Positions 11,793 to 62,415 of a stretch of 64,000 nt of DNA are shown piece after piece; position 1 is the first letter of the stretch, and every line of letters starts with the position of its first letter. The position numbers were made by a program, and so were the translations under genes. Under the pieces are notes generated by a model. That model worked only from the letters and a program-made list of their open reading frames with translations. It searched no databases and was not told the origin of the DNA. Origin of the DNA: Candidatus Acidiferrales bacterium (GTDB taxonomy: Bacteria; Acidobacteriota; Terriglobia; Acidiferrales; 2-02-FULL-67-57); contig CBDFHE010000018.1 in assembly GCA_965247455.1 (NCBI GenBank), positions 404,566 through 468,565 on the forward strand. The letters are read 5' to 3'.

Positions 11793-13601
11793 CTACTCGG
11801 TGACTTGCAGGACGACGACGGTGCGGTCGTCGGCGAGCTTGGAGTTGCGGGCGACGTAGCGGTCGGTGGCGCGCAGGAGCCCATCGGCGATGTCGCGGGG
11901 GGAGCTGCCCCGGACCAGTCCGGCAATGATCTCTTCCAGGCGACCCAACCCCAATTGGTGCTGCTCCCTGTCCATGGCCTCGTGGATGCCCTCCGAGCAA
12001 AAGATGACGACATCACCCGGCTGCAGGTCGAGCTTCTCCTGCTCATAGCGGCTCTCGGGCAGCAAGCCCAGCGGCACGCCCCCCACGGGAATCCGTTCCG
12101 CCTTGTCCCCCCGCACCAACCAGGGGTAGGGAAAACCGGCATTGGCCAATGTGAGAGTCCGGCTGGGATTGTCATAGACGGCGAAGACCAGCGCGATGTA
12201 GCGGTTGTCGATGCGGGGCTGGCGCAGGTGCTCGTTCACCTGCTCCAGCATCTCAGCAGGTTCGCAGGGGTGCTGCTGCACCACGTGTCCGCGCACGATA
12301 CCCACTGCCAGCGACCCGTAGAGCGCCGCCGGGGTGGCCTTCCCAGCCACGTCGCCGACAACGATAGCCACGCGCCCTTCGCCGTAGGGGAGGAAGTCGT
12401 AGATGTCGCCCCCCAGTTGGCGGGCCGGTTCGTAGGCGAAGGCGATGTCCAGCCCCGGCACGCGCGGCGGGGCGTCGGGCAGCAGGCCTTTCTGAATTTC
12501 GCGCGCGGTGGCCAGGTCGCGCTCCAGGCGCTGCTCGTCCCGGCGCACGGCTTCGTAGAGCCGGGCGTTTTCGAGAGCGATGGCGATGTTGGAAGCCAGG
12601 GTGGAGAGCATTTGCTCGTGCTGCTCGGTGAAGGCGTTGTACTCGGTGCTTTCCAGGTCCAGCACGCCCACCAAGCGGTCTTTGAAAGCAAGCGGCACCA
12701 CCAGCTCCGACCGAACCTCTATCTCGTAACCGCAGCGGACGTAGCGCAGGTCCAGGTCGACGTTGGGGATGCGCAGCGGCTGGCGCAGCGCCGCCGCCGC
12801 CCCGCAGATGCCGTGGCCGAGGGGGATTCCGCCCTCCTGCTGGATGCGCTCATCATGGCGCAAGATGAAGGTGTGCTCCAGGAGCTGCGACTCCTCGTTC
12901 CAAAGCATGACCGAGAACAATTGGTAGTCGATCAGCCGCTTCACCAGTTGCGCCACCCGACCCAGCAGCTCCTCGCGGTCGAGGATGGAGGACAGCTTGC
13001 GGCTGACTTCGTGCAACAAGGAGAGCGTGCGCGCCTGCTCGCGCAGGTTTTCGTAGAGGCGCGCGTTTTCAATTGTGTTCGCCAGGCGCCCGGCCAGCAG
13101 AGTCAGCAAGCGCTGGTGGTTTTCGGTGAAGTGGTGGCATTGGCGGCTGCCGACGTCCAACACCCCGATGGTGCGGTTTTTGACGGTCAGCGGAATGGCC
13201 ATCTCGGAGCAGACGTCTTCCGCCGCCTTGATGTAGCGGGAATCCGCCTTGACTTCACCCACCCGCAGCGGCTGGCCGGTTTTCGCCACCGTGCCCACCA
13301 GGCCCTGCCCCAAGCCGAAGCGCCAGTGCTGCGCCACATCCTCGGGAAACCCGAGGGTAAAGCGGAAATACAACTCGTGGCCGAGGTCATCCAGCAGCAG
13401 GATGCTGAAGTTGTCGTACTCCACCTCCTCTCTGACCCGCTCAGCCACTTTGCGGAGGACGGCGTCCAGCTCCGGGGTCGAGTTCAGGTCTTCGGCCACC
13501 CGAACCAGGAAGCCCATCGCAGCCGCTTCATCGGTTTGGCTTTCCGGTGTGCGGACGATTTCTTGTGTGCCGGCCAATTTGTCTCTCAACGCCTTTTCCA
13601 T
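11793..13601 (-). CDS. GAF-GAF-PP2C (SpoIIE-family) protein serine phosphatase
   Basis: Two GAF-like segments followed by a SpoIIE/PP2C domain (GGDIYDF.., VAIVVGDVAGKATPAAL.., ADDRTVVVLQV). Confidence 0.85.
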   Translation of the reverse strand: MEKALRDKLAGTQEIVRTPESQTDEAAAMGFLVRVAEDLNSTPELDAVLRKVAERVREEVEYDNFSILLLDDLGHELYFRFTLGFPEDVAQHWRFGLGQGLVGTVAKTGQPLRVGEVKADSRYIKAAEDVCSEMAIPLTVKNRTIGVLDVGSRQCHHFTENHQRLLTLLAGRLANTIENARLYENLREQARTLSLLHEVSRKLSSILDREELLGRVAQLVKRLIDYQLFSVMLWNEESQLLEHTFILRHDERIQQEGGIPLGHGICGAAAALRQPLRIPNVDLDLRYVRCGYEIEVRSELVVPLAFKDRLVGVLDLESTEYNAFTEQHEQMLSTLASNIAIALENARLYEAVRRDEQRLERDLATAREIQKGLLPDAPPRVPGLDIAFAYEPARQLGGDIYDFLPYGEGRVAIVVGDVAGKATPAALYGSLAVGIVRGHVVQQHPCEPAEMLEQVNEHLRQPRIDNRYIALVFAVYDNPSRTLTLANAGFPYPWLVRGDKAERIPVGGVPLGLLPESRYEQEKLDLQPGDVVIFCSEGIHEAMDREQHQLGLGRLEEIIAGLVRGSSPRDIADGLLRATDRYVARNSKLADDRTVVVLQVTE

Positions 13602-13699: not shown

Positions 13700-15181
13700 C
13701 TAGTCAGACTGGCAGACCATCCGGGTCAAGGTCTGGAAGTGGTAGCCCATGATGGCCAGGGTAATGGCGGTGTCGAAGGAGTGGCGATAGTGGGTGGCAG
13801 CGTCGAAAAAGAACTTCCAGTAGCTGGTGCGTGCATTCCCCAGCACGCCCTGCTTGAGGATCGAGCGGGCCAAAGCAAAGTAGTCCGACCGCACGCGACG
13901 CGCGTGGTGCGCCGGGCCGCGCTGGGCCAGGAAGCGCCGCACCCGCTCGTAGTAGGCGTCGGGCTGGTAGATGCGCTGGAGGATGGACTTGAAGCCTTCC
14001 AACAGGCGCTGCGGGTTCATCTTGGGAACAAAGTTGAGCCGGCAGTCCATGTTGTCCCCGTGGCCCTCGTCGCGGATGCGGCCTTCCTTCAAGAGCCGCC
14101 GATAGAGCTGCGTGCCGGGCAGCGCCATCAGTAGCCCCACCATCGCCAGCGGAATGCCGCTCTCCTGGATGAACTCCACCTGCCGGTCGAAGACGTCTTC
14201 AGGGTCGCTGTCAAAGCCCACGATGAACCCCGCCATCACTTCGATCCCGTAGCCCTGGATGTGGCGCACGGAGTCGAGCAGATTGCGATGGGTGTTCTGC
14301 AGCTTCTGGGCTTCCTTCAGGCTTTCTTCCATCGGAGTTTCAATGCCCAGAAAGACGCGGATGAAGCCCGCCTCTTTCATCAACCGCAGCAACTCCGAGT
14401 CGTCAGCCAGGTTCACCGAAGCCTCGGTGAAGAAAGTGAAGGGGCGCCGGTGCCGGATGTTCCACTCCGCCAACACCGGCAGCAGCTCCTTGACCTTCCT
14501 CTTGTTGCCGATGAAGTTGTCGTCCACAATGAAGACTGAACCCCGCAACTTGCGCTGGTAGAGCAGCTCCAACTCCGCCACCACCTGCGCGGGCGACTTG
14601 GTGCGCGGCTTGCGCCCGTAAATCTCAATGATGTCGCAGAACTCGCAATTGAAAGGGCAGCCGCGCGAATACTGAATCGCCATGGAGCTGTAGTACCTGG
14701 GCTTGATCAGGCTGAGGTCGGGCAACGGAGTCTTGTCCAGGCTGGGCAGCTCGCGCGCCTGGTAAAGCGGCTTGGCCGTTCCCCTTTCCAGGTCGGCTGC
14801 CAGCCCGGCAATCAGGTCTTCGGCCTCGCCGATCACAACATGGTTGGCGTGCCGGGGAAGCTCCTCCACGCTGCTGGTCACCGGCCCGCCGATCACCGTC
14901 CGCAGGCCGCGGGCGCGGCAGCGCGCCAGGATCGCCAGCAGGTCGCGCTTGTGCACCAGCATCCCGCTCAGCAGGGCCACGTCCGCCCACTTCAGGTCGG
15001 CGTCGGTCAGGCGGCGAATATTGGTGTCCACTAAGCGCTTCTTCCAGTGCGTGGGCAGCAGGGGAGCGATGGTCAGCAGGCCCAGGGGTGGGTAGGCGGA
15101 GCGCTTGCCCTCAAACGGCAGCGCATGCTTGAAACTCCAGTAGGTAGCGGGCCACTCGGGATAAATCAGCAGAGCATTCAT
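13700..15181 (-). CDS. B12-binding domain radical SAM protein (DUF4070-type C-terminus)
   Basis: N-terminal cobalamin-binding-like region, radical SAM cluster motif YSRGCPFNCEFCDI, and the family's typical N-terminus MNALLIYPEWPATYW. Confidence 0.85.
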   Translation of the reverse strand: MNALLIYPEWPATYWSFKHALPFEGKRSAYPPLGLLTIAPLLPTHWKKRLVDTNIRRLTDADLKWADVALLSGMLVHKRDLLAILARCRARGLRTVIGGPVTSSVEELPRHANHVVIGEAEDLIAGLAADLERGTAKPLYQARELPSLDKTPLPDLSLIKPRYYSSMAIQYSRGCPFNCEFCDIIEIYGRKPRTKSPAQVVAELELLYQRKLRGSVFIVDDNFIGNKRKVKELLPVLAEWNIRHRRPFTFFTEASVNLADDSELLRLMKEAGFIRVFLGIETPMEESLKEAQKLQNTHRNLLDSVRHIQGYGIEVMAGFIVGFDSDPEDVFDRQVEFIQESGIPLAMVGLLMALPGTQLYRRLLKEGRIRDEGHGDNMDCRLNFVPKMNPQRLLEGFKSILQRIYQPDAYYERVRRFLAQRGPAHHARRVRSDYFALARSILKQGVLGNARTSYWKFFFDAATHYRHSFDTAITLAIMGYHFQTLTRMVCQSD

Positions 15182-15212: not shown

Positions 15213-16895
15213 CTTAGCCGGGATTTCCGTTTTGCCTGCCCCTGATGGCACGTTTATACACCCGATCGCCGCCGATCGCACAAAAACTTCGATCGTCGCA
15301 CAATCGCTCAGCTTCAAAGGCCTTCATCTGAGCCCGCGCCGACGTGCGACCGACTGGAACCCCTGCTTTTCGGGCATTTCTCAGACACCGCTCCACACGT
15401 GTGCCCCGTGTCATCGCCGGGCGGGCTTCGTTGCACTTCAGGCCGCGCGTCAGCCTGCCGGCACGGGTAGCGCCCAGATCCTCCGCAGCATGTCGCCGAA
15501 CAGCCGCCGCGTGAGATGCCCTTCCGCCAGCAGAAGCCAGTAGTACCGCGCATGCTTCACCAGCCGGCCCCCAGTTTTCACCAGTCGCTGCTGGAGACTC
15601 GTGAGCGACCAGCGCTTGACCCGCAGCGGAAGGACCAGTCTGCGCCACAAGTTGCCCAGATTGTAGGCCAGGACGCTCAGTTGCAGGCGCACCTCGTTCG
15701 CCCGGAAACGATGGCACGACAGCCGCGTCCAGTGGGTGGCCTGCTTGCCTTCCTTGATCCATTGCTCCGCCGTACCGCGCTTGTTGTAAAACCGCACGAC
15801 CGAGCGGCTCGGGAGGGCCATGTTGGTCACGATGAAGCCGACGCGAGGGAACAGCTCACCTTGGTGGTGCTCCACCTTGGCGACGATCCGTCTGGGCGTG
15901 GTCCAGCTCTTGGCCTGATAGCGGAAACTCTGGTAGCGCACCAAGGGCTTGCAGCTCGGCCGTCCCGGCGGACGAAAGAGGATGTCTTCGATTTCCAGCT
16001 CCAAGCTCTTGTTCGCCGGCATGCGAATGGCATAGTCCACGTCGCGCTGCTCGAGCGCGTCGTAGATCTCGGGCTTCGCGAACGCGGCGTCTGCGCGGAA
16101 CGCTACGCGCTTGCCCTCCACCTGCTGCCGGTCAATCTCCGGTACGAGCAGGTCGTCCCAGTCGTCGGCGCTATGCACGTTGCCTGGCCGCAGCGTGGCG
16201 GCGAGGCAGTCCCCATGCTCGGTGAACAGAAACAGCGGGTGGTAGCAGACGGACTCGAAGTGCCCGTTATAGGCGCTCCCTTCCTGCGCCCCATGCACCG
16301 GGCTCTCGCTCGAATCCATGTCGAGCACGATCCGGTCGGCGCGCGTCGCCATCTCGGCCTGTGCAAGCACCTCCCGGTTCACGGCCCTCAACCCGACGAG
16401 ATTCTCCTCGTGGGTCAGCAGCTCTGTCTCGAACCAATGCAGCGTCGATGTCAGCGCCGCACCCCGGTCCCAGCGCTTTGGCGACCCGATGAGACGAAAT
16501 GTTGGGTCTGCCGACACGCGCCCCGCGTCGTTGAGATCTTCGTAGCCCGCGAGGCGACTGTAGACCGACTGCCGCAGGAGATCCACCACGCTGAACTGGG
16601 TGTTCATCCCCTGTCGGGAATCGCTCAGGTGCTCGGCGATGAGTGTCTCCAGCCCCAGACGTTCATCCAACTCGCGCACCAGAATGAGGCCAGCGTCAGA
16701 AGTGACGCGCGATCCCTGGAACGCGACTTTCAAGAAGCCGTTGAACGCGAACTGGAATGGCTCGTGTTGTAATTCACCCACCGGGTGTCACCCTCCGTAG
16801 TGTGGTTCCTTACGTCGGAGCCCCAAAACTCAAGGCGCAGCGACTGGTCCTGGCGATACGGTACCACAGCCAAATCGGAAATCCGGGCTTAGACC
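15213..16895 (-). mobile_element. IS1380-family-like insertion sequence (~1.68 kb)
   Basis: Single DDE transposase ORF bounded by imperfect ~27-bp inverted repeats. 15213-15239 (TCTTAGCCGGGATTTCCGTTTTGCCTG) matches the reverse complement of 16869-16895 (TCTAAGCCCGGATTTCCGATTTGGCTG) at 23/27. Length matches IS1380-type elements. Target duplication not resolved. Confidence 0.75.
15450..16781 (-). CDS. IS1380-family DDE transposase
   Basis: 443 aa. The N-terminus (..VTSDAGLILVRELDERLGLETLIAEHL..) and overall length are typical of IS1380/IS4-like transposases. Confidence 0.8.
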   Translation of the reverse strand: MGELQHEPFQFAFNGFLKVAFQGSRVTSDAGLILVRELDERLGLETLIAEHLSDSRQGMNTQFSVVDLLRQSVYSRLAGYEDLNDAGRVSADPTFRLIGSPKRWDRGAALTSTLHWFETELLTHEENLVGLRAVNREVLAQAEMATRADRIVLDMDSSESPVHGAQEGSAYNGHFESVCYHPLFLFTEHGDCLAATLRPGNVHSADDWDDLLVPEIDRQQVEGKRVAFRADAAFAKPEIYDALEQRDVDYAIRMPANKSLELEIEDILFRPPGRPSCKPLVRYQSFRYQAKSWTTPRRIVAKVEHHQGELFPRVGFIVTNMALPSRSVVRFYNKRGTAEQWIKEGKQATHWTRLSCHRFRANEVRLQLSVLAYNLGNLWRRLVLPLRVKRWSLTSLQQRLVKTGGRLVKHARYYWLLLAEGHLTRRLFGDMLRRIWALPVPAG

Positions 16896-16944: not shown

Positions 16945-17092
16945 GGTAGCGTCTTAATTTCACACCGAGCCCCCAGGCCCCTGCCTGGGGGAAGCGAAAA
17001 TCCCTGCGGCCTGCCTGCGGTAGGCAGGCGGGGGCCGCAGGGCTCGGTGTGATTTGGGCCGAGTTCCGAATCGCTCAAATTAAGACACTACC
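16945..17092 (+). mobile_element. MITE-like element copy 1 (148 bp) with 8-bp target-site duplication
   Basis: Terminal inverted repeats GGTAGCGTCTTAATTT / AAATTAAGACACTACC. Flanked on both sides by GAAATTTC (16937-16944 and 17093-17100). About 90% identical to the inverted copy at 18831-18979. Confidence 0.85.
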
Positions 17093-17198
17093 GAAATTTC
17101 GCTTCGACGAGTGCTGCGCGGCGTTGAACGGCAGGGCGAGGCGTTGCCGCAGCACGGGGAAGAATCAATCAGCGAGGAGGCTACTGTGCTCACGTTGC

Positions 17199-18359
17199 TC
17201 ACTGGGGATCAGGCGGTTTGAGTGTTGGGTCGAGCCGCTGCGCTTCTGCAAACGCTCGGCGCGCTTCTTTTTTCTTGCCTGCGTCTTGGAGTGCCAGACC
17301 CAGGTTGTAATGGAAGGATGGGTCGTCGGGTTTGCGCTGCAGAGCTTTGTTAAAGGCAGCGATGGCCGCGTCGAACTGGCCCTTGCCGGCGAGGGCGAGG
17401 CCGAGATTGCTGAGGGCTTCGGGGTCGTCGGGTTTGCGCTGCAGAGCTTTGTTAAAGGCAGCGATGGCCGCGTCGAACTGGCCTTTGCCAACGAGGGCGA
17501 GGCCGAGGTTGCTGAGAGCTTCGGGGTCGTCGGGTTTGAGCTGCAGAGCTTTCTTCAGGGCGGCGATGGCGTCGTCGAGCTGGCCTTTGCCAACGAGGAC
17601 GAGGCCGAGGTTGCTGAGGGCTTCGGGGTCGTCGGGTTTGAGCTGCAGAGCTTTCTTCAGGGCGGCGATGGCATCGTCGAACTGGCCTTTTTTGCCGAGG
17701 GCGAGGCCGAGGTTGTTGAGGGCTTCGGGGTTGTCGGGTTTGAGCTGCAGAGCTTTGTGATAGGCAGCGAGGGCCTCGTCGAACTGGCCTTTGTCGGCGA
17801 GGGCATTGCCGAGGTTGTTGAGGGCTTGGGGGAAGTCGGGTTTGAGCTGCAGAGCTTTCTTCAGGGCGGCGATGGCATCGTCGAACTGGCCTTTGTCGGC
17901 GAGGGCATTGCCGAGGTTGTTGAGGGCCTGGGTGTAGCCGGGCTTGAGCTTCAGAGCTTTATGATAGGCGGCGATAGCCTCGTCGAACTGGCCCTTGTGG
18001 CCGAGAGCGACGCCGAGGTTGTAGAACGAAGTGCCTACTTTCGGAAGGGCCATCGTTGCCAAGCGCGCCTGCTGGAGGGCTTCGTCTAGGTTCTGCGCCG
18101 CGTCGGCTTTCATTTGCCGCCTAGCAAGAGCGTTGCCGATGGCGAACTCGGTGGCAGGGTGCAGGTCGGTTACGGCTCGCACAGCCATCTCTTGCAATGC
18201 TTGGTGTAGTGTAGAGGTATCGCTGCGCTCGGCATGCACTTCCCACGGGCCAACGCCTGATGACCGCCCGACCAGCAGAAGCCCCGATTCGCTCGGAATC
18301 ATGTCGCCACTGATGACAACCTGCCGCTGGAAGAGACGCCGCAAGAACGAATTAAACAC
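17199..18359 (-). CDS. tetratricopeptide (TPR) repeat protein
   Basis: Eight or more consecutive 34-aa TPR units (ALNNLGNALADKGQFDDAIAALKKALQLKPD..). The N-terminal ~110 aa are non-TPR. GTG start at 18359. Confidence 0.85.
   Translation of the reverse strand: MFNSFLRRLFQRQVVISGDMIPSESGLLLVGRSSGVGPWEVHAERSDTSTLHQALQEMAVRAVTDLHPATEFAIGNALARRQMKADAAQNLDEALQQARLATMALPKVGTSFYNLGVALGHKGQFDEAIAAYHKALKLKPGYTQALNNLGNALADKGQFDDAIAALKKALQLKPDFPQALNNLGNALADKGQFDEALAAYHKALQLKPDNPEALNNLGLALGKKGQFDDAIAALKKALQLKPDDPEALSNLGLVLVGKGQLDDAIAALKKALQLKPDDPEALSNLGLALVGKGQFDAAIAAFNKALQRKPDDPEALSNLGLALAGKGQFDAAIAAFNKALQRKPDDPSFHYNLGLALQDAGKKKEARRAFAEAQRLDPTLKPPDPQ
17321..18034. repeat. 7 x 102-bp tandem repeat (coding, TPR units)
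   Basis: The motif GGTCGTCGGG (or a close variant) recurs at 17321, 17423, 17525, 17627, 17729, 17831 and 17933, an exact 102-bp period. Units 17321-17422 and 17423-17524 are nearly identical at the DNA level. Confidence 0.9.
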
Positions 18360-19257: not shown

Positions 19258-19380
19258 CCATTGCGTTTGCCAAGGCACTACCTCAGGGGCTAAAGCCCCT
19301 GATCTACGGCGCTTTCTACGGCACGGCTGAAGCCGTGCCCTGACGAAGGATCCACACAAACCACTGATGAGATGATTTTC
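19258..19380 (+). repeat. double-hairpin intergenic element, copy 2 (family A)
   Basis: Aligns with 11371-11490 over its whole length. Its GATGATTTTC end abuts the deoC stop codon (19380-19382). Confidence 0.85.
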
Positions 19381-20336
19381 TAGTAGCGGGTGGCGGTGGC
19401 TGGCGCAGCGGACTCGGTGGGAACGCCGGCGGCCTGTTGCACAATCTTGACGCTGGCGGAAGCGCCGATGCGCGTGGCCCCGGCCTGCACCATCGTCTGC
19501 AAATCTTCGTAGGTACGGATGCCGCCCGCAGCTTTCACACCCATGCCCTGGCCCACCACCATCCGCATCAGCTCCACGTCCTGCGCGGTGGCGCCGCCGG
19601 GGCCGAAGCCGGTGGAGGTCTTGACGAAGTCCGCGCCCGCCAGCAACGCCAACTGGCAGCCACGAACTTTTTCCTGGTCGGTCAGCACGGCGCATTCGAG
19701 GATGACTTTGCAGAGCGCGCCGCCGGCGTGGCTGGCTTCCACCACGCCGCGAATGTCCTGCTCGACCAGATCGTCGTCGCCTGACTTGAGCGCGCCCACG
19801 TTGATGACCATGTCAATTTCCTGCGCGCCCAGCTTGACGGCCTGCTCGGTCTCATAAGCCTTCACCTGCGGCAGCGTGGCGCCAAGCGGAAAGCCCACCA
19901 CGGTGCAGACCTTGACGGCCGTGCCGCGCAGCGAGACGGCGGCCAGCGGCACCCAATAGGGATTGAGGCAGACGCTGGCGAAATCGAATTGCTTGGCTTC
20001 CTCGCAGAGCTTGAGGACCTGCTCGCGCGTGGCTTCGGGCTTGAGCAAGGTGTGGTCAATCAGGGCCGCCACCTCAGGCGGAATTTCTGTGACGCCCAGC
20101 CCGGCGCTCAACCGCGCCGCGCCCGCCGCCATCACCTGACGAGCCTTGGTGGGGCAGGTCTCCACGCAGCGCTGGTCGCAACCGGGGCAGACGACTTCGT
20201 CAATTTCCAGCCCGCGCAGCTCGCACAACTGGCGGTCGCCCAGGTAGCAGAAAATCTGCCGGGTAATCTCCTCGATCAGTTGCTCGAGCTGCTGCTCATT
20301 CAGACCGTCATTCATGGCAATAGAACTGCTCGGCAT
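19380..20336 (-). CDS. deoC: deoxyribose-phosphate aldolase with ~95-aa N-terminal extension
   Basis: C-terminal ~220 aa is canonical DERA ([11 protein letters not shown].., [19 protein letters not shown] with the Schiff-base Lys, VKAAGGIR). The N-terminal extension carries an amphipathic helix and a CxxCxxxCxxxCP motif. An alternative start at Met69 cannot be excluded. Confidence 0.9.
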
Positions 20337-20388
20337 CGCTTAAGCAGTCTGTGTGAAAACGGCATTTTCATGCCCTCAGCAGCTAACA

Positions 20389-20537
20389 GCTTGTTGAAAA
20401 ACTGCTGACCGCTGTCATTCCGAGGGTCGGCGGGTTGGGCCGACCCGAGGAATCTGTTTTGTTTTCAGGGACTGCTGATTCAAAAGCAGATTCCTCGCTG
20501 CGCTCGGAATGACATCCAGACCACTTTTTCAACAAGC
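20389..20537. repeat. ~150-bp palindromic intergenic element
   Basis: Outer inverted repeat GCTTGTTGAAAAA (20389-20401) / TTTTTCAACAAGC (20525-20537). Inner inverted repeat GTCATTCCGAG (20414-20424) / CTCGGAATGAC (20503-20513). Additional internal hairpins. Confidence 0.8.
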
Positions 20538-20657
20538 TCCTAAAGCCGTGTTGACAAGGGCTGACCTTACGGCACGGCTCCTCGCAAAAAGTGCGGGGAC
20601 TCCGCTTCGCTCCGAGAAGCGTGCCCCGCCGAAAACCATTCGTTGTCACACAAACTC

Positions 20658-21278
20658 TCACGAGCGGGCGGCGCGCTCGATGGCGGTGATTTTATCCACG
20701 CGGCGCTGATGGCGTCCACCGGCAAAGTCGGTCTCCAGCCATACGCGAACGATTTCGCGCGCCTGCTCGGGCGTAAGCAGGCGGGCGCCCAGGCTGAGGA
20801 CATTGGCGTCATTGTGCTCGCGGCTGTTGCGCGCCGTAGCCCTATCATAGCACTGCGCCGCGCGCACGCCCGGAACCTTGTTGGCGGCCATGGCCGAGCC
20901 GATGCCGGCGCTGTCAATCACGATGCCGCGCCACGCCGCCCCGCTGGCCACCGCCTGCGCCACCGCACCGGCAAAGTCGGGGTAGTCCACCGAAGCGGTG
21001 GAGCCGGTGCCGAGGTCGCGCGCTTCGTAGCCCGACTCCAGCAGGAACCGCTTGAGGAATTCTTTCAGCTCGTAGCCGCCGTGGTCGGCCCCCAGCACCA
21101 CCGGGCGGTGCCGGCCCGCGCTGGGCGCGTCCACGGATTCTTCGACGCGAATGCGCACGCCGCGCTCGCGGGCGCGCTCGCGGGCCTCGTCGGTGACGAT
21201 GGCGTCGCGGGGCACCACCACCTCAGCGCCTCGCGCCAGGGGTTCGATGTCAGCCGCGGTCAGGATGCGTCGGGCCAT
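20658..21278 (-). CDS. rpiB: ribose-5-phosphate isomerase B with ~58-aa N-terminal extension
   Basis: VVLGADHGGYELKEFLKRFL.., GIVIDSAGIGSAMAANK and NDANVLSLGAR are canonical RpiB/LacAB motifs. The long form starts 3 nt after the hpt stop. A GTG at the core start (about 21101) is an alternative. Confidence 0.9.
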   Translation of the reverse strand: MARRILTAADIEPLARGAEVVVPRDAIVTDEARERARERGVRIRVEESVDAPSAGRHRPVVLGADHGGYELKEFLKRFLLESGYEARDLGTGSTASVDYPDFAGAVAQAVASGAAWRGIVIDSAGIGSAMAANKVPGVRAAQCYDRATARNSREHNDANVLSLGARLLTPEQAREIVRVWLETDFAGGRHQRRVDKITAIERAARS

Positions 21279-21281
21279 GCT

Positions 21282-21833
21282 TTAAGTATCGACAGTGGGC
21301 AGGACGCAGACGTCGGGCAGGTTGCGGTACAGCTCGGCGTAGTCGAGGCCGTAGCCCACCACGAACTCGTCGGGAATCTTGAAGCCGATGTAGTCCACCG
21401 CCACTTCGGTCACGCGACGGTCGGGCTTGTCGAGCAGGACGGCAATCCTGAGCGAACGCGGCCGGCGGGCCTGCAAGAGGCGGTAGAGGTAGTTGAGGGT
21501 GAGCCCGGTATCGAGGATGTCTTCAACGATGATAACGTGCAGGCCCTCGATGGAGCGGTCGAGGTCTTTGGTGATGCGGACTTCCCCCGAAGGCAGGCTG
21601 CCCTTGCCGTAACTGGAGACGGCGATGAAATCGACCGAGACCGGGATGCGGAGCTCGCGCAGCAGATCGGCGAGAAATATGCAGGCGCCTTTGAGGATGC
21701 AGATCAGGTGCACGCTCTCGCCCTTGCAGTCGCGCTCGATCTGCCGGGCGATCGCCCGCACGCGCTTGCGAATCTGCGCCCGGCGCAGCAGCACCTTGAG
21801 CTTTTCCGGTTGGCGCTTCTTGGCCACCCTCAC
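21282..21833 (-). CDS. hpt: hypoxanthine phosphoribosyltransferase
   Basis: PRPP-binding motif VIIVEDILDTGLTL, plus DFIAVSSYG and FVVGYGLDY. The ORF extends to 22031, but the homologous core begins near GTG 21833/21827. Confidence 0.85.
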   Translation of the reverse strand: MRVAKKRQPEKLKVLLRRAQIRKRVRAIARQIERDCKGESVHLICILKGACIFLADLLRELRIPVSVDFIAVSSYGKGSLPSGEVRITKDLDRSIEGLHVIIVEDILDTGLTLNYLYRLLQARRPRSLRIAVLLDKPDRRVTEVAVDYIGFKIPDEFVVGYGLDYAELYRNLPDVCVLPTVDT

Positions 21834-22093
21834 CCCCGCACATGCTTGCTGGACGCCGCTCACTTTACCCTGTGCGGCAAGCGCGAGGCAAGAGGCGCGG
21901 GGTGTGAAATTTTTTGCGGTGTCGCCACGGTGTCTGCTATCAGCATAGGATGCGGGGGCTTGTGCGGAATGCGTGCGGGTTGTGCGTGCGTGGGAATAGG
22001 CATGCCGGCTCACCACCACCGGTACTCCCAAGCCCCCAGTCGGGAGCGGAGTTGGCCGAAGACGCGGCAGGATGTTAGAATGTTTCGATTGGC

Positions 22094-22169
22094 GAGCCCG
22101 TAGCTCAGTCGGTAGAGCATCTGCCTTTTAAGCAGAGGGTCGTGGGTTCGAGCCCCACCGGGCTCACCA
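22094..22169 (+). tRNA. tRNA-Lys (anticodon TTT), CCA encoded
   Basis: Folded by hand. Acceptor GAGCCCG/CGGGCTC, D arm GCTC-AGTCGGT-AGAGC, anticodon arm TCTGC-CTTTTAA-GCAGA, T arm GTGGG-TTCGAGC-CCCAC, discriminator A, then CCA. Confidence 0.92.
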
Positions 22170-57168: not shown

Positions 57169-58593
57169 CTATGCGGGACTGACGCTGTTGCCGAGGGGCG
57201 GCGCCTGCCGGCCTCCACACTGCTGTTCAATCTTGGCTGCGATCGCCAGCACGACTTCTTCCTCGTAGGGCCGGCCGACGACTTGCACTCCGATGGGCAG
57301 GCCCTCGGGCGAACGGCCCACCGGAACCACAACGCCGGGATTGCCCAACAGGTTAAACCAGGGCGTGTAGCTCATTGCGTCCAGATAGGAAATTGACTGG
57401 CTGTTGATTGTCCAGGCGCGTTCGCCGTGGCGGAAAGCCGGAACCGCACAGACCGGGCAGAGCAGCACGGGGAATTTCTCCATCTGCTCGGCCAGGCCAA
57501 TCACCAGTTGGTCGCGTTCTATCCAGGCATTGAGCAGCTCCTCAGCCGTGAGCAGGGGCGCTTGAAGCGCATACTGCATCAGGGTAGGAACCTGGTTCGA
57601 TGCGCGCCCCTCAAACTCCTGCCCCAAAAGCGTCCTAGCCCCGAAACCAAGGAACAGCCACAACAACTGTCGCGCCCGCTCCAGTCCCTCCGGCCGGAAA
57701 GGCACCACCTCGAAGCCCTGCTGCTTCAGCGTCTCGGCTGCTGTGCGGACAGCCGCCCGCGTTTCCGGCGTGACCGGCGTGCGGCCGTCGTCCTCGAAGT
57801 AGCCGATGCGAATCTTGTGCACCTCTGCATCGCTCAAACGGCGCAGCGGCACGGGCGCGGCGCAGGCGTCACCTTTATCGGGCCCGGCCATCGCTTCGAA
57901 AAGGAGATGAAGATCGGCGACGGTGCGGGCCAGAGGGCCGACTACTCCCAGCAAGGCGAAGGGCCCCAGGGAAGGAGGGTAATGGCCGGTGGCCGGGATG
58001 CGGCCCGGCGTCGGCTTCAGGCCGCAGACGCCGCTGAAATGGGCGGGAACTCGGATGGAGCCAGCCCCGTCGCTGCCAACTCCTCCGGCGGAGCAGCCGG
58101 CGGCGATTGCCGCCGCCTCGCCCCCGCTCGAACCGCCCGGCGTGCGTTCCAGGTCCCACGGACTATTGGTTCTTCCGTAGAGGAGATTATCGGTCTCGAA
58201 GGCCATGAGCATCTCGGGGACGTTGGTGTTGCCAAGCACGATTGCCCCCGCCGCCTTGAGCCGCGCCACCACGGGAGCGTCGGTTTCCGCCACATAGCCG
58301 GCGCGGAGCTTGCTGCCGGTCTCGCAGCGCAGGCCGGCGACGTCGATCGAACTCTTGATGGTTACGGGAACTCCGTGCAGCGGCCCCACGGTGGCGCCCT
58401 GCAGAACATCCACCTCCGCTTTGCGCGCGGCTTCGAGCGCGCGAGCGGAATCCACGGAAACAAAGGCATTCAGTTGCGGGTTGAACCGCTCGATCCGATC
58501 GAGGTGCGCTTGCACCAACTCAACTGGAGAGATTTTCTTGTCCCGAATCATCCGCGCCATTTCACGGGCGGAGCGATGCTTGAGAGAATCCAT
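57169..58593 (-). CDS. amidase (amidase-signature family)
   Basis: AS signature GGSSGGEAAAIAAG, catalytic-Lys region (GVPVTIKSSIDV). ATG 58593 is preceded by GGAGGGGAGGG; the ORF opens at 58761. Confidence 0.85.
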   Translation of the reverse strand: MDSLKHRSAREMARMIRDKKISPVELVQAHLDRIERFNPQLNAFVSVDSARALEAARKAEVDVLQGATVGPLHGVPVTIKSSIDVAGLRCETGSKLRAGYVAETDAPVVARLKAAGAIVLGNTNVPEMLMAFETDNLLYGRTNSPWDLERTPGGSSGGEAAAIAAGCSAGGVGSDGAGSIRVPAHFSGVCGLKPTPGRIPATGHYPPSLGPFALLGVVGPLARTVADLHLLFEAMAGPDKGDACAAPVPLRRLSDAEVHKIRIGYFEDDGRTPVTPETRAAVRTAAETLKQQGFEVVPFRPEGLERARQLLWLFLGFGARTLLGQEFEGRASNQVPTLMQYALQAPLLTAEELLNAWIERDQLVIGLAEQMEKFPVLLCPVCAVPAFRHGERAWTINSQSISYLDAMSYTPWFNLLGNPGVVVPVGRSPEGLPIGVQVVGRPYEEEVVLAIAAKIEQQCGGRQAPPLGNSVSPA

Positions 58594-59125
58594 ACCCTCC
58601 CCTCCAATCGCGATAGGACGCGAGTGTATCACGCGGTGGAGGCTTTTTCGGATCGCACACCGGCGAACAACGATGGAATCCGCAGCGGTTAAAGTACGAT
58701 TCTGGGGACAGCAGAAGAGAAAGTGGCGGGTGGGCCTATAAGCCGGATTCTGTCCAGGCAAGATCAGCTAAGTTGTTGCCAGCCCGCCAGTTCCTTCTAA
58801 TCTTCTTAGTTTTAACTGGTTATCAGTCTTTCTCCCCAATCTCTCTATTCTTTCGAGTCTACCTGGTTCCGCACATTCTGGACGCTAAATGGACGCTAAG
58901 CCTGCTCGCCCATTCGCTGCCTCGACTGTCTCAAAACCTGTGGTTTGGGACAGCCCGCCGTGTTGACTTGCCACGGGATGGGACAGAGGTGATCGGGGAT
59001 TTCTGTGTCGCAACGCTTCCGTCAGCAATCCTTACAACTTCAACATACGCAACCCCAGTGCTGTGATTCTTGAAGGAGAGAGCAGCGCAAAGTTGTAGGT
59101 GGAAAAACGGTTGTCCTACGAGCGC

Positions 59126-60106
59126 TTACTCTGCAGCCAAACGAACTAGTTCATGATAGAGCGCTTCGTCAATTGAGACAAAACCGGCGCGCCGGTACTC
59201 TCGAGCTTTCTTGTCGCCGCGTTCACCGGGGAGATAGATCTCATCGACTCCTCTTTGCTTCTCTGCGGACTTGATCCATTTGGCAAATCGAGAGATTCTC
59301 TGCAAGAAGGTCTCTTGCTTGCCAAATATCGCCGGATCGAGCACGATCAGAAAGTGTCCCCAATTATTTTTGTCACCGGGATTCTCGAAGGCGCCCACCA
59401 ATAGACCGGCAACCAACTGAACCGCAACACCCAAGCCCCAGCCGAACACACCTTTGGGCAGGATGGTGCCTTCTAAAGCCTCCTTTGCGTCGGTCGTGGG
59501 TTCGCCCTGGCTATTAAGAGCCACACCGAGCGGAATCGTCTTGTTCTGCCTTGCGGCCTCAACGAGCGCGTAATAGGCCCACTGGGCAGTGGTGGCATCA
59601 AAGACAAGTGGATCGCTTTCGGATGGAAAGGCGATCGAGATAGGATTTGTGCCGATCCGGGCTTCTTTGCCACCATACGGTGCCACCATTGCCGGGGTCG
59701 CGGCAGTTAGCAAAGCAATCAGTCGGTGCTCGCGCGCGATCTTGCCTGTAAAGTAGCCGATCGCACCGCTAGAGGAGTTGGTGTGGTTTATGCCGACCAT
59801 GCCGACGCCATATGTCTTTGCTTTCTTTACGGCGAACTCAGATGCTTTGGCAAGCACAACCTTTGCATTATTGTAGTTCGCGTTGAGCAGGCACGCGGTC
59901 TCGGTTTCAGAAACAACTTCAATCGATCCTTTTGGTGCATAGGCGATGTCTTTGAGCGTCTGAAGATCTTGATTGTTATCTCGAAGCTCTGCATACATCA
60001 GGCATTCCCGGATGATGCTAGCTTCCTCACTGGGAAAGCCTTGAGATCGCAGGATGGATGATGCCAGGTTCCTGAGTTCGTCGATTTTCACTTGCAAGCT
60101 GGCCAT
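59126..60106 (-). CDS. Ldh2-family (malate/L-lactate/imino-acid) NAD(P)H-dependent oxidoreductase
   Basis: 326 aa. Family segments GMVGINHTNSSSGAIGYF, GTNPISIAFP and HFLIVLDP. Confidence 0.8.
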   Translation of the reverse strand: MASLQVKIDELRNLASSILRSQGFPSEEASIIRECLMYAELRDNNQDLQTLKDIAYAPKGSIEVVSETETACLLNANYNNAKVVLAKASEFAVKKAKTYGVGMVGINHTNSSSGAIGYFTGKIAREHRLIALLTAATPAMVAPYGGKEARIGTNPISIAFPSESDPLVFDATTAQWAYYALVEAARQNKTIPLGVALNSQGEPTTDAKEALEGTILPKGVFGWGLGVAVQLVAGLLVGAFENPGDKNNWGHFLIVLDPAIFGKQETFLQRISRFAKWIKSAEKQRGVDEIYLPGERGDKKAREYRRAGFVSIDEALYHELVRLAAE

Positions 60107-60180
60107 GATCTAGGCTCCGTTCACTTCGATGAAATTTGGCTCAGTGACTGCCCGCTGCTTTCTGTTCCGACAAACATCGC

Positions 60181-61488
60181 CTAATAAGAGAAATTTCTAA
60201 CGGATGATGAACAGAATCTATCCAGACTCAAACAGGACAAGTTAATTGATGAAGTACCCCCACAGACCAACTGTGCTATGAGCTGGCCCGTTACCGGAGC
60301 CAAGGACATTCCGAGCATTCCGTGTCCAGTTGCAAGTAAGAGGTTTTCGAATTCCCTCGGCCGGCCCACAACTGGCAATCCGTCGGGCGTTAGGGGGCGC
60401 AGTCCTGACCAAACCTCATGAACGCGAAGACCCTTAAAATGCGCTAGGTACCTGCCAGCAGCGCGCAAGATTACATTCACCCGACGCTGGGAAATAGACA
60501 AGTCCACGCCAGCCAGTTCCAGTATCCCTGTTATCCTAAGCTTGCCATTCATGGGAGAGGCAAGCGTCTTTGCCTCTCTAAATGAGAGAGGAATTTGTGG
60601 GGATTCCGCTTGTCCTTCCACGGTTACGCTGTAGCCTTTGCCGGCCTGAATTGGGAGGTTGAGTGCAAGTTTTCTAGTTAGAGCAGGAGACCATGCTCCC
60701 GCAGCCAACACCACTTCATCGGGTTGGAAATTACCCTTGTTCGTTTTGACCCTTGAGATTCGTCTACCATGGATCTCCAGCTCCTCTATCTCCGTTGACG
60801 TCTTGACCTTCACACCCAGTCCCTCGACGACCCCAGCCAGGCCGCGAACAAACTCGGCCGGCAACAATTGGGCATCCTCAGGGAAGAGGATCCCTCCACA
60901 TAGTGAAGGTAATAGAGTTGGTTCTAGTTTGTGCACCTCCGCTGGATCCAATCCCTTTGAGTCGATTCCGTACTCTTTCAGCAGGTCGGCTTCTTTTTTC
61001 ATCTCTTCAAGTCCGTGCCGACTCCTTGCCACGACCAGCAAACCGTTGCGCTGGTAGCCGAATTCAAACCCGTCAATGGCACTCAATTGCTCATACAGCG
61101 AGAGGCTGGCGCGAATCAAATCGCGCAGTACCGGTATGGCCTTTCGGACAATTGCCTCCTTGGACGAGCGTTGAAACCACCACAACCATCTGATGAGTTC
61201 GGAATCGAAGCGAGGCCTGATATAGAAAGGGCTATCCTTGCCCAACATGTATCTTATCGCTTCTGCTATTACTCCTGGTGCAGCAAGGGGAATACTGTAA
61301 CTGGGAACCACCAGTCCGGCATTCCCATAGGAACAGCCTGAAGAGATTTCACTCTTCTCAACAAGCGTGACATCCCTACCTGCCATGGCAAGGTAGTAGG
61401 CGCAGCATACCCCAATCACGCCTCCACCGATTACGAGTACGTCTGTACGATTCAAGCTGCTATGCATCTCCCCTGTGAAGCCATTCAC
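60181..61488 (-). CDS. FAD-dependent oxidoreductase (DAO family, D-amino-acid dehydrogenase-like)
   Basis: N-terminal dinucleotide fold DVLVIGGGVIGVCCAYYLAMAGRDVTLVEK. DadA-like length and C-terminal GHGMLGMSLAP. Confidence 0.85.
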   Translation of the reverse strand: MNGFTGEMHSSLNRTDVLVIGGGVIGVCCAYYLAMAGRDVTLVEKSEISSGCSYGNAGLVVPSYSIPLAAPGVIAEAIRYMLGKDSPFYIRPRFDSELIRWLWWFQRSSKEAIVRKAIPVLRDLIRASLSLYEQLSAIDGFEFGYQRNGLLVVARSRHGLEEMKKEADLLKEYGIDSKGLDPAEVHKLEPTLLPSLCGGILFPEDAQLLPAEFVRGLAGVVEGLGVKVKTSTEIEELEIHGRRISRVKTNKGNFQPDEVVLAAGAWSPALTRKLALNLPIQAGKGYSVTVEGQAESPQIPLSFREAKTLASPMNGKLRITGILELAGVDLSISQRRVNVILRAAGRYLAHFKGLRVHEVWSGLRPLTPDGLPVVGRPREFENLLLATGHGMLGMSLAPVTGQLIAQLVCGGTSSINLSCLSLDRFCSSSVRNFSY

Positions 61489-62405: not shown

Positions 62406-62415
62406 AGCAACTTCC

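What the first reader, a model, noticed from the sequence alone, without database searches (positions are those of the whole stretch)
19380..21278. deoC and rpiB both carry N-terminal extensions; the DeoC extension resembles a microcompartment encapsulation peptide plus a Cys4 motif
Seen: in the longest ORFs, DeoC has ~95 extra N-terminal residues and RpiB ~58. The DeoC extension starts with an amphipathic helix, [17 protein letters not shown]. It continues with [14 protein letters not shown], a CxxCxxxCxxxCP motif that varies the ferredoxin CxxCxxCxxxCP. The RpiB extension (ILTAADIEPLARGAEVVVPRDAIVTDEARERARERGVRI) looks like a folded small domain. The long form is favoured because it starts 3 nt after the hpt stop. 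Established: bacterial microcompartment cargo is targeted by short N-terminal amphipathic helices (e.g. PduP MNTSELETLIRTILSEQL, PduD MEINEKLLRQIIEDVL). The 'sugar-phosphate utilising' (SPU) microcompartment class is defined by DERA (DeoC) and RpiB. Inference: this may be a satellite cargo locus of an SPU-type metabolosome, or a metal/Fe-S-regulated DERA. No shell genes are present in this window.
Basis: partly seen in the sequence, partly recalled or inferred. Interest (0 to 1): 0.6.

Follow-up and report, generated by a model that had tools for sequence, protein, structure and literature searches.

The report
Microcompartment-type DERA and RpiB without shell genes
Two sugar-phosphate enzymes in this soil acidobacterium carry the add-on pieces that normally mark cargo of a bacterial protein organelle, but they sit in a nucleotide-salvage operon with no organelle shell genes nearby, so it is open whether the shell is encoded elsewhere or has been lost.

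Summary
On the minus strand, hpt, rpiB and deoC form an operon. DeoC (318 aa) has 88 extra N-terminal residues and RpiB (206 aa) has 59. Both extensions are under purifying selection (dN/dS 0.04-0.3) in 57 species-level Acidobacteriota genomes, nearly all labelled Acidobacteriota, Terriglobia or Candidatus Acidiferrales.

The DeoC extension has three parts: a strongly amphipathic helix (res 14-33), [13 protein letters not shown] (res 50-62), and a conserved K.R.V..AGA.R.SAG element. It is homologous to the extension of DERAs encoded inside genuine sugar-phosphate-utilising (SPU) microcompartment loci.

RpiB has Asp in place of the catalytic Cys66, which is the published SPU RPI hallmark. Its extension is a confidently folded 47-aa domain (pLDDT 90). 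It matches only microcompartment proteins (PduM C-terminus, EutQ N-terminus) and also occurs in the RPI of a shell-containing SPU locus.

No shell gene lies in the window or within 10 kb in any of the 57 related loci. The same search finds shell genes in 39 of 41 control loci of a sister DERA clade.

The Cys4 cluster is widespread in this DERA family and is not discussed in the SPU papers I read. It is not a ferredoxin domain.

Verdict: SPU-type cargo proteins at a shell-less locus. I could not test whether a shell is encoded elsewhere in the genome.

The parts
21282..22031 (-). hpt (hypoxanthine phosphoribosyltransferase), longest ORF. The real start is probably GTG at about nt 21827 (codon 69), which follows a GGGGGTGAGG Shine-Dalgarno-like run.
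   Evidence: TIGR01203 E 1.5e-64 over residues 80-244. Homologues in 55 loci mostly align from residue about 44-76. Start candidates are listed.
20658..21278 (-). SPU-type RpiB-like protein (RPI), 206 aa. Its ATG lies 3 nt after the hpt stop.
   Evidence: PF02502 E 1.5e-54 over residues 60-197. Conserved from residue 1 or 3 in 55 of 57 related loci.
21138..21278 (-). RPI N-terminal 47-aa beta-alpha-beta-beta-alpha-beta domain of the PduM C-terminal / EutQ N-terminal type.
   Evidence: 23 of 25 family members hit TIGR04493 PduM positions about 113-152 (best E 5e-5). 21 of 25 hit PF15953, 9 of 25 hit the EutQ N-terminus and 12 of 25 hit eut_hyp. AlphaFold2 pLDDT 90.3. The same domain occurs in the RPI of shell locus L063, hmmsearch E 4e-9. 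No solved structure matches.
20913..20915 (-). Asp122 codon, at the position of the E. coli RpiB catalytic Cys66. Thr68 is also replaced, by Ala.
   Evidence: Alignment with E. coli RpiB and with two shell-locus RPIs. D9, H10, H99, N100, R133, H134 and R137 are invariant. The hallmark is described in PMC11585597.
20337..20657 (.). 321-bp nested-palindrome (MITE/REP-like) insert between rpiB and deoC. It is specific to this genome and is not part of the protein feature.
   Evidence: Absent in L002, where the spacer is 6 nt. Terminal inverted repeats at 20346-20361 and 20641-20656 plus four nested pairs. RNA fold -151.8 kcal/mol, z = -9.1. No Rfam match.
19380..20336 (-). deoC, an SPU-type deoxyribose-phosphate aldolase (DERA) of 318 aa with an 88-aa N-terminal extension.
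   Evidence: TIGR00126 E 4.7e-85 over residues 89-300. D175, K210, K239 and the C-terminal Tyr are conserved.
20238..20297 (-). Amphipathic, encapsulation-peptide-type helix, residues 14-33 ([20 protein letters not shown]).
   Evidence: AlphaFold2 helix at 14-33. Hydrophobic moment 0.59, reached by 0.25% of shuffles. Conserved in 57 genomes and in shell-locus DERAs.
20151..20189 (-). Cys4 motif [13 protein letters not shown], residues 50-62 (C50, C53, C57, C61).
   Evidence: The four Cys are conserved in every readable Acidiferrales sequence. 68 of the 77 representative extended DERAs that could be scored have at least 4 Cys here. 72 of 80 shell-locus clade members keep C-x3-C-x4-C-x3-C. Fer4 hits are below cut-off.
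20094..20147 (-). Conserved element [18 protein letters not shown], residues 64-81. A71, G72, A73 and R75 are invariant across the family.
   Evidence: Alignment A5. It resembles DERA's own C-terminal helix-strand segment at residues 274-296 (hhalign probability 72-95%).
19380..20072 (-). DERA catalytic TIM barrel, residues 89-318, plus the stop codon.
   Evidence: phmmer against the PDB: best hit 8qps, E 2.9e-85, query residues 88-304. AlphaFold2 block-mean pLDDT mostly 87-98 across this domain.

Best explanation
The hpt-rpiB-deoC operon encodes the signature enzyme pair of the sugar-phosphate-utilising (SPU) bacterial microcompartment, relocated into a purine and deoxynucleoside salvage operon.

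Shown:
- Its 88-aa extension is homologous to the extension of DERAs encoded in shell-containing SPU loci. It consists of an amphipathic encapsulation-peptide-type helix, a four-cysteine cluster and a conserved linker element.
- The RpiB-like protein has the SPU RPI hallmark, Asp in place of the catalytic Cys.
- It also has a 47-aa domain otherwise matched only in the microcompartment proteins PduM, EutQ, EutT and eut_hyp.

Inferred from published work on SPU6 and archaeal SPU systems:
- The RPI is a poorly active or inactive partner that binds DERA about 1:1.
- The helix drives self-association of the cargo and docks it to shell proteins.
- Acetaldehyde is then consumed inside a shell that must be encoded elsewhere in the genome, together with an acylating aldehyde dehydrogenase.

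Inferred, weakly:
- The four cysteines form a small metal site (Zn or Fe-S), or a redox-active site, that stiffens or cross-links the segment between helix and barrel.
For: Homology of the DERA extension.
- An extension-only profile finds 131 representative proteins.
- Among them, P0095 lies in a locus with four EutN genes, Aldedh, BMC-H and a CsoS1D-type BMC-T. P0113 lies in a GntR-RPI-DERA-T-H-P-AldDH-T-P-P-TIM locus.
- The pairwise extension alignment gives E 7e-8. hmmsearch E-values are 3.5e-10 and 2.2e-9.
- 39 of 41 metagenome loci of at least 4 kb from the P0095 clade carry shell genes.

RPI.
- Cys66 is replaced by Asp, with the phosphate-binding residues kept. This matches 'all SPU RPIs' in PMC11585597.
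- The N-domain matches PduM, EutQ, eut_hyp and EutT only. It is also present in the RPI of shell locus L063.

Selection and structure.
- dN/dS on both extensions is as low as on the catalytic domains.
- The helix is amphipathic.

Precedents.
- HO-type genomes carry a distal pfam01791 gene with an EP-like extension, and in SPU7 the DERA sits in a satellite location.
- The SPU6 extension makes DERA insoluble, and DERA and RPI co-purify.
- EP-containing core enzymes, a set that includes the Flav+DERA fusion, are recruited into archaeal SPU shells.
Against: No shell gene, BMC-type aldehyde dehydrogenase or PduL lies in the 64-kb window or within 10 kb in any of the 57 related genomes. Sister lineages show the same picture (L060/L061, L066, L067 and the P0054 contig). 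A shell elsewhere is therefore assumed, not seen.

The RPI lacks the amphipathic helix that shell-locus RPIs have.

The catalogue of Sutter et al. 2021 describes Acidobacteria only for the ACI and SPU3 locus types, and its shell-protein trees also tag single acidobacterial genomes as PDU1D and PVM. None of these is noted for this order. The stored supplement files are truncated, so this is weak evidence.

The linker is not 'poorly conserved' as in textbook encapsulation peptides.
Confidence: 0.5

Rival explanations
1. Shell-less relic or repurposing. The order lost, or never had, shell genes. The SPU-derived DERA-RPI pair works in the cytosol as a housekeeping deoxyribose-phosphate catabolic complex coupled to purine salvage. 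The helix, the Cys4 cluster and the PduM-like domain are kept because they hold the DERA-RPI complex or a higher-order enzyme body together, or because they regulate it.
For: - 0 of 57 loci have shell genes nearby, against 39 of 41 in the control clade with the same queries.
- hpt-rpiB-deoC synteny is strict, and the only other conserved neighbours are ordinary genes such as a GAF-GAF-PP2C phosphatase, penicillin amidase and polyprenyl synthase.
- At least four further lineages have the pair, or a fusion, without shells in the available flanks.
- The RPI has lost the EP helix.
- Encapsulation peptides are known to drive cargo-cargo aggregation as well as shell binding (PMC11585597).
Against: Two independent modules otherwise matched only in microcompartment proteins are both kept under strong purifying selection across an entire order. 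This is easier to explain if the shell partner exists. Free acetaldehyde production without a compartment or an adjacent aldehyde dehydrogenase would be unusual for this enzyme subtype. Flanks of 10 kb say nothing about the rest of a 4-5 Mb genome.
Confidence: 0.35
2. Metal- or Fe-S-regulated DERA unrelated to microcompartments. The extension is a ferredoxin-like or redox-sensing domain that controls aldolase activity, and the amphipathic helix is incidental.
For: - Weak Fer4_6 and Fer4_7 hits at residues 43-65, E 0.02-0.05.
- The four Cys are conserved in every readable sequence of the 57 genomes, and the motif ends in CP in this window.
- The Cys segment is poorly modelled without a ligand.
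Against: The scores are about 10 bits below the Pfam cut-offs. The spacing is 2-3-3, not 2-2-3, and there is no partner motif. Family members in shell loci have different spacings (3-4-3, and 1-3-3 or 1-4-3 elsewhere) or no Cys at all, yet keep the helix. The extension as a whole is homologous to that of shell-locus DERAs.
Confidence: 0.07
3. Annotation artefact. The long ORFs over-extend, and translation starts at internal codons (DeoC near Met69, RpiB at an internal GTG).
For: - No clear Shine-Dalgarno sequence lies upstream of either ATG.
- High-GC genomes produce long spurious upstream ORF extensions. The hpt ORF in this same operon is probably over-extended.
Against: In-frame conservation without stops or frameshifts across 57 species, with dN/dS of 0.04-0.3. 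Position 69 is not Met in most relatives. The RpiB N-domain folds with pLDDT 90. rpiB starts 3 nt after the hpt stop and deoC in relatives starts 6 nt after, or overlapping, the rpiB stop, which fits translational coupling. Dwyer et al. report that automated annotation routinely misses exactly these extensions.
Confidence: 0.02

Closest known systems
SPU6 microcompartment DERA and RPI of Chloroflexi (Dwyer, Sutter and Kerfeld 2024, PMC11585597)
   Same: - DERA with an N-terminal extension of about 70 aa that begins with a long amphipathic helix.
- RPI adjacent and upstream, with Cys66 replaced by Asp and an N-terminal extension.
- The SPU6-like locus L063 recovered here has an RPI that carries the same PduM/EutQ-like domain.
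   Different: - SPU6 genes lie among shell and aldehyde dehydrogenase genes. Here they follow hpt with no shell genes nearby.
- The SPU6-type extension (P0113) has no cysteines, whereas the window has four.
- The SPU6 RPI has an EP helix before the small domain, and the window RPI does not.
SPU3 loci, including fused RPI-DERA proteins (Sutter et al. 2021, Supplementary Data 2)
   Same: - SPU3 is the only SPU subtype reported in Acidobacteria.
- The gene order is RPI then DERA.
- The fusion P0052 found here has the same N-domain, the Asp, an internal helix, a Cys cluster and the AGA.R element.
   Different: - SPU3 pairs are described inside shell loci.
- P0052 and the window pair are not within 10 kb of shell genes.
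- The window genes are separate, not fused.
Distal pfam01791 aldolases with EP-like extensions in HO-type microcompartment genomes, and the SPU7 satellite DERA (Sutter et al. 2021)
   Same: The cargo-type DERA is encoded away from the main shell locus.
   Different: - Those genomes are known to contain shell loci. For this genome that is unknown.
- The SPU7 satellite location also holds shell genes.
Flavoprotein-DERA fusions of Hodarchaeales archaeal microcompartments (preprint PMC12747264)
   Same: DERA preceded by an EP-type helix. The relatives P0081 and P0116 found here have helix, flavoprotein-like domain, Cys motif and DERA. Recruitment of EP-containing core enzymes into shells was shown experimentally.
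   Different: The window DERA has no flavoprotein domain. It is bacterial and has no adjacent shell operon.
Classical encapsulation peptides of PduP and PduD (recalled from memory, not retrieved)
   Same: An N-terminal amphipathic helix of about 18 residues with an L..LI..I...L-type hydrophobic face.
   Different: The window helix is longer (about 20 residues). It is followed by a conserved Cys-rich segment rather than a poorly conserved linker.
2x[4Fe-4S] ferredoxin motif CxxCxxCxxxCP (PF12837, PF12838)
   Same: Four Cys in a short run ending in CP.
   Different: There is one extra residue between the second and third Cys, only one motif is present, and the scores are below the family cut-offs. 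It is not a member.

Membership tests
SPU microcompartment DERA (signature enzyme) | PF01791 / TIGR00126 catalytic domain with the Schiff-base Lys, the second Lys, the Asp and the C-terminal Tyr | tested here: met
   TIGR00126 284 bits against a cut-off of 117. D175, K210 and K239 are invariant, and the protein ends in Tyr.
SPU microcompartment DERA (signature enzyme) | N-terminal extension of about 70 aa that begins with an amphipathic helix and is absent from ordinary DERAs | tested here: met
   88-aa extension. Helix at 14-33. Hydrophobic moment 0.59. All solved DERAs align only from about residue 72-92.
SPU microcompartment DERA (signature enzyme) | Extension homologous to that of DERAs encoded in shell-containing loci | tested here: met
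   Control clade: 39 of 41 loci with shell genes.
SPU microcompartment DERA (signature enzyme) | Encoded in a locus with BMC-H and BMC-P shell genes and an aldehyde dehydrogenase | tested here: not met
   None in the 64-kb window and none in the 57 related loci. The conserved neighbours are unrelated.
SPU microcompartment DERA (signature enzyme) | Shell genes somewhere in the same genome | not testable with these tools
The BMC-H protein search returned only Chloroflexi-like top hits.
SPU-type RPI | PF02502 domain with the catalytic Cys66 replaced by Asp and His99 kept | tested here: met
   Alignment with E. coli RpiB: Asp122, with H99, N100, R133, H134 and R137 invariant. Criterion taken from PMC11585597.
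SPU-type RPI | N-terminal amphipathic EP helix followed by a long linker | tested here: not met
   There is no amphipathic helix in residues 1-45 (hydrophobic moment 0.05-0.17). A folded 47-aa domain is present instead. That domain is itself part of the 'linker' of the RPI in shell locus L063.
SPU-type RPI | Forms a roughly 1:1 complex with DERA | not testable with these tools
   Only indirect support: adjacency in 55 of 57 loci, and natural fusions (P0052; L056).
Encapsulation peptide | Terminal amphipathic alpha-helix of about 15-20 residues | tested here: met
Encapsulation peptide | [quoted passage not shown] | tested here: inconclusive
   The segment 34-88 has low pLDDT (42-67). However, it is well conserved and contains the Cys4 and AGA.R elements.
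Encapsulation peptide | Necessary and sufficient for packaging into a shell | not testable with these tools
   This needs an experiment.
PduM C-terminal / EutQ N-terminal small domain | Sequence match to PF15953 / TIGR04493 positions about 113-152 | tested here: met
   21-23 of 25 family members match, best E 1e-5 to 5e-5. Whole-protein cut-offs are not reached, because only about 40 of 153 profile positions are present.
4Fe-4S ferredoxin-type domain (PF12837 / PF12838) | A CxxCxxCxxxCP motif scoring above the Pfam gathering threshold | tested here: not met
   15.1 and 14.6 bits against cut-offs of 25 and 27. The spacing is 2-3-3.

The most novel reading that the evidence does not exclude
An entire order of soil Acidobacteriota (Candidatus Acidiferrales), and several other lineages, may keep microcompartment cargo modules with no shell at all. 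The modules are the EP helix, the Cys4 cluster and the PduM-like domain. In that case they would act as a shell-independent assembly or redox-switch system for a DERA-RPI enzyme body. The Cys4 cluster would then be an undescribed metal or disulfide site that cross-links or gates SPU-type DERAs. It is present in 68 of the 77 scorable representative family members and is lost in nested pairs.
Probability: 0.3. Interest if true: 0.65.

Novelty: new variant of a known kind. Interest (0 to 1): 0.45.

Why it matters
SPU microcompartments are among the most widespread bacterial organelles, and their enzymology is still poorly understood. This work adds three points to the published picture.

1. The 'BMC-specific' DERA extension also occurs, under strong selection, in DERAs encoded far from any shell gene. 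These DERAs sit in a conserved hpt-rpiB-deoC operon across 57 acidobacterial species. This either reveals a large class of distal cargo loci that locus-based catalogues miss, or it shows that cargo modules can outlive the shell.

2. Most SPU-type DERAs outside the SPU6 model system carry a conserved four-cysteine cluster between the helix and the barrel. The SPU papers I read do not discuss it. It could be a metal or redox element relevant to cargo assembly.

3. The 'linker' of some SPU RPIs contains a folded PduM/EutQ-type domain. This gives a handle on what that orphan domain binds.

All three points can be tested directly with one genome search and a few protein experiments.

Tried and rejected
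Searches that gave little or nothing.
- The look-up of encoding contigs with the window DeoC found no exact match on record.
- The search for related loci with the six-sequence extension alignment had no stretch conserved enough to search with. It was repeated with four sequences.
- The profile search with the RpiB N-domain in the 5.8-billion-protein set returned only short fragments of the same RPIs and a few Gemmatimonadota proteins. It gave no EutQ or PduM hits. The family link rests on NCBIfam and Pfam scans instead.
- The BMC-H search meant to reveal Acidiferrales shell proteins returned only Chloroflexi and Anaerolineales-like top hits. None of its 'longest contig' lengths matched the Acidiferrales contigs.
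- The last context look-ups gave no record or contigs of about 1 kb.

- The afdb50 fold library was not available.

Literature.
- The supplement files of Sutter 2021 are truncated at 400 kb. The absence of Sulfotelmatobacter shell entries there is therefore not conclusive. The stored part of the EP HMM file holds no DeoC model.
- A literature search for microcompartments in Acidiferrales, Acidoferrum, Sulfotelmatobacter or UBA7541 found nothing relevant.

Negative results.
- PDB sequence and fold searches with the two extensions gave nothing significant.
- Rfam has no match in the 321-bp insert.

Rejected readings: a ferredoxin domain, over-extended ORFs, and a link between the neighbouring radical SAM, TPR or transposase genes and the DERA-RPI pair. 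These genes are found in few relatives or only in this genome.
Full report
**What is there**

The region lies on the minus strand and reads hpt (21282-22031), rpiB (20658-21278), a 321-bp spacer, then deoC (19380-20336). deoC encodes 318 aa. The DERA equivalog TIGR00126 covers residues 89-300 (E 4.7e-85). rpiB encodes 206 aa, and PF02502 covers residues 60-197.

Every solved DERA structure aligns only with residues about 72-92 onward. The first 88 residues of DeoC and the first 59 of RpiB are therefore extensions.

rpiB starts 3 nt after the hpt stop.

In this window deoC is separated from rpiB by a nested-palindrome insert with terminal inverted repeats. The closest relative, L002, lacks it and has a 6-nt spacer there.

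**The extensions are coding**

One scan of species-representative genomes with the extension alone returned 57 loci. Nearly all are labelled Acidobacteriota, Terriglobia or Candidatus Acidiferrales; three carry other phylum labels. In 55 to 57 of them the same hpt-rpiB-deoC order is kept, and both proteins align from their first residues.

dN/dS for the DERA extension is 0.04-0.18, the same as for its catalytic domain. For the RpiB N-terminal domain it is 0.12-0.30. Over-extended ORFs can be excluded. The hpt ORF, by contrast, probably is over-extended.

**What the DeoC extension is**

AlphaFold2, run with a 51-sequence alignment, gives these results:

- residues 14-33 form a helix (block-mean pLDDT about 75-84)
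- residues 34-56 form a low-confidence coil
- residues 57-70 form short helices
- residues 72-83 are disordered
- the catalytic barrel is confident (block-mean pLDDT mostly 87-98)

The helix is strongly amphipathic. Its hydrophobic moment is 0.59, and 0.25% of shuffles reach that value.

An HMM built from the extension only, searched against 1.84 billion representative proteins, found 131 proteins. Nearly all of them matched a full-length DERA profile. All 16 longer ones I read in full are DERAs. They include:

- an RPI-DERA fusion (P0052), of the kind described for SPU3 loci
- proteins with helix, flavoprotein-like domain, Cys motif and DERA (P0081, P0116), of the kind described in Hodarchaeales

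Two members could be placed in their genomic context, and both are in genuine microcompartment loci:

- P0095 is followed by two EutN genes, an aldehyde dehydrogenase, BMC-H, a CsoS1D-type BMC-T and two more EutN genes.
- P0113 lies in a locus with GntR, RPI, DERA, BMC-T, BMC-H, BMC-P, AldDH, BMC-T, BMC-P, BMC-P and TIM. Its BMC-H is closest to Chloroflexi sequences, so this locus is SPU6-like.

The window extension aligns with that of P0095 at E 7e-8.

A metagenome scan for the P0095 clade gave 80 loci. 39 of the 41 loci of at least 4 kb contain shell genes.

The extension is therefore the SPU DERA extension described by Dwyer et al. 2024. They report a helix of about 25-30 residues followed by low-confidence strands. 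They also report that the extension makes the protein insoluble and that annotation pipelines often miss it.

**The cysteines**

The four Cys (C50, C53, C57, C61) are conserved in every readable Acidiferrales sequence. The two other Cys of the window protein are not.

Of 89 representative extended DERAs, 77 could be scored by my motif anchor. Of these, 56 have exactly four Cys in this segment and 12 have five or six. Nine have three or fewer, including five with none. The SPU6-type P0113 has none.

The spacing falls into classes: 2-3-3 (the window), 3-4-3, 1-3-3 and 1-4-3. The last pair is almost always C-x3-C.

In the shell-locus clade, 72 of 80 members keep C-x3-C-x4-C-x3-C. The exceptions lose Cys in nested pairs. 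Some lose the first and fourth, with one intermediate that lost only the fourth. Others lose the second and third. This hints at two coupled pairs rather than one indivisible site.

The Pfam Fer4 hits (15 bits) are well below the cut-offs, and the spacing is not that of ferredoxin. The main text of Dwyer et al. mentions cysteine only in connection with RPI Cys66. Their sequence logo is for SPU6, whose extension lacks the motif.

Sutter et al. note several unexplained Cys-rich mini-domains on other microcompartment cargo. These are in the MIC3, MIC6, MUF2 and ACI locus types.

I infer a small metal or redox site. Which of the two cannot be decided from sequence.

**A further conserved element**

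K.R.V..AGA.R.SAG (residues 64-81) is invariant at A71, G72, A73 and R75 across the whole family. It resembles the DERA's own C-terminal helix-strand segment (hhalign probability 72-95%). I record this as a lead only.

**What the RpiB extension is**

Aligned with E. coli RpiB, the window protein has Asp122 at the position of the catalytic Cys66, and Ala at the position of Thr68. D9, H10, H99, N100, R133, H134 and R137 are all kept. Dwyer et al. report this Cys-to-Asp change in all SPU RPIs. They found negligible ribose 5-phosphate isomerase activity and a roughly 1:1 complex with DERA.

The first 47 residues fold with pLDDT 90 as a small beta-alpha-beta-beta-alpha-beta domain. They are not an amphipathic helix.

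Scanned one by one, the family members gave these hits:

- 23 of 25 hit the C-terminal 40 positions of PduM
- 21 of 25 hit PF15953
- 12 of 25 hit eut_hyp
- 9 of 25 hit the EutQ N-terminus
- 8 of 25 hit EutT

No other family was hit by more than one member.

The same domain sits between the EP helix and the isomerase domain in the RPI of shell locus L063, with hmmsearch E 4e-9. No solved structure resembles it.

It is a microcompartment-associated module, but the window RPI lacks the canonical EP helix seen in L059 and L063.

**Genomic context**

Six canonical shell protein queries find nothing in the window (best E 0.5). They also find nothing below E 0.04 in the 1 Mb of related loci. A larger query set, which added nine shell proteins from L059 and L063, readily finds shells in the control clade.

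The conserved neighbours are a GAF-GAF-PP2C phosphatase (52 of 57 loci), a penicillin amidase, a polyprenyl synthase and an unannotated gene.

Between deoC and the phosphatase gene, this window holds three further genes:

- a TPR protein
- a DDE transposase
- a radical SAM/DUF4070 gene, which is shared with the closest relatives

Other lineages show the same shell-less context in the flanks available:

- the fusion P0052, on an 81-kb contig
- the CPGC-type sister clade (L066, and L067 with the same GAF-PP2C neighbour)
- P0054, which follows hpt directly

**Interpretation**

By homology these are SPU-type cargo proteins. I am confident of that (about 0.9).

Whether they are encapsulated in this organism depends on shell genes elsewhere in the genome, which I could not search.

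Points in favour of a distal shell:

- Two independent microcompartment-specific modules are kept under strong selection.
- There are published precedents for distal DERA genes, in HO genomes and in SPU7.

Points against a distal shell:

- There is a complete contrast with the control clade.
- The operon has a housekeeping character.
- The RPI has lost its helix.
- No microcompartment type is reported for this order.

I put the distal-cargo reading at about 0.5 and the shell-less reading at about 0.35. A closed-genome HMM search would settle it.

**Novelty**

SPU DERA and RPI with extensions are known. What this work adds, relative to the papers I could read:

- an order-wide placement in a salvage operon without shell genes
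- the prevalence of the Cys4 cluster
- the PduM/EutQ-type domain in RPIs

I rate this a new variant of a known kind, of moderate interest.

Noticed in passing
window 20337-20657: A 321-bp insert lies between rpiB and deoC, with terminal inverted repeats and four nested palindromes. Its predicted RNA fold is -151.8 kcal/mol (z = -9.1). It is absent in the closest relative. A core of about 25 nt (ATGTCATTCCGAGCGCAGCGAGGAATC) recurs in other acidobacterial loci (L053, L057, L058). It looks like a MITE/REP-type element sitting inside the operon, and it could uncouple deoC from rpiB translation.
   Followed up: partly
window 11793-13601 (-); also L009:3911-5737 and L067:11241-12632: A GAF-GAF-SpoIIE (PP2C phosphatase) gene is conserved downstream of deoC in 52 of 57 Acidiferrales loci and also in a sister lineage. 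No functional link to DERA is evident.
   Followed up: partly
window 15450-16781 (-): An intact DDE_Tnp_1_4 transposase (E 7e-118). It is an IS element found in none of the 57 related loci, inserted between deoC and its conserved neighbours.
   Followed up: partly
window 17199-18359 (-): A TPR protein with very regular 34-aa repeats (at least seven units). The repeats generate long spurious ORFs on the opposite strand (17049-18089 +). It is present in only 2 related loci.
   Followed up: no
window 13700-15181 (-): A radical SAM plus DUF4070 protein; the L009 homologue also has a weak B12-binding-domain hit. It is shared only with the closest relatives, for example L009:1031-2512.
   Followed up: partly
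window 22094-22169 (+): A tRNA-Lys(UUU) gene lies between the divergent hpt and pckA genes. It is the only tRNA in the window.
   Followed up: yes
window 21282-22031 (-): The longest hpt ORF (TTG start, 249 aa) is probably over-extended by about 68 codons. Homologues align from residue about 44-76. A GTG at codon 69 follows a GGGGGTGAGG run.
   Followed up: partly
L056:9758-10930: In one Terriglobia MAG the RpiB catalytic domain is missing, and the PduM-like N-domain is fused in frame to the extended DERA. This is either a natural deletion or fusion, or an assembly artefact.
   Followed up: no
window residues 64-81 of DeoC (nt 20094-20147) compared with residues 274-296: The conserved K.R.V..AGA.R.SAG element of the extension resembles the DERA's own last helix-strand unit (hhalign probability 72-95%). 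This may be a partial internal duplication or a strand mimic.
   Followed up: partly
L080-L083, L089, L109, L141 (shell-locus DERA clade): The few members that lack the full C-x3-C-x4-C-x3-C motif have lost cysteines in nested pairs (first with fourth, or second with third). This suggests two coupled Cys pairs around a conserved DG turn.
   Followed up: partly
window 58000-64000: G+C drops from about 0.64 to 0.53-0.57 over the last 6 kb of the window. This may be foreign DNA.
   Followed up: no
P0151, P0153, P0156 (Gemmatimonadota): These are short proteins or fragments with the same PduM/EutQ-type domain. It is followed by Pro/Ala-rich linkers and EP-like helices (for example DPDDVERIVERVRARM). 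They may be further cargo or assembly proteins that use this module.
   Followed up: no
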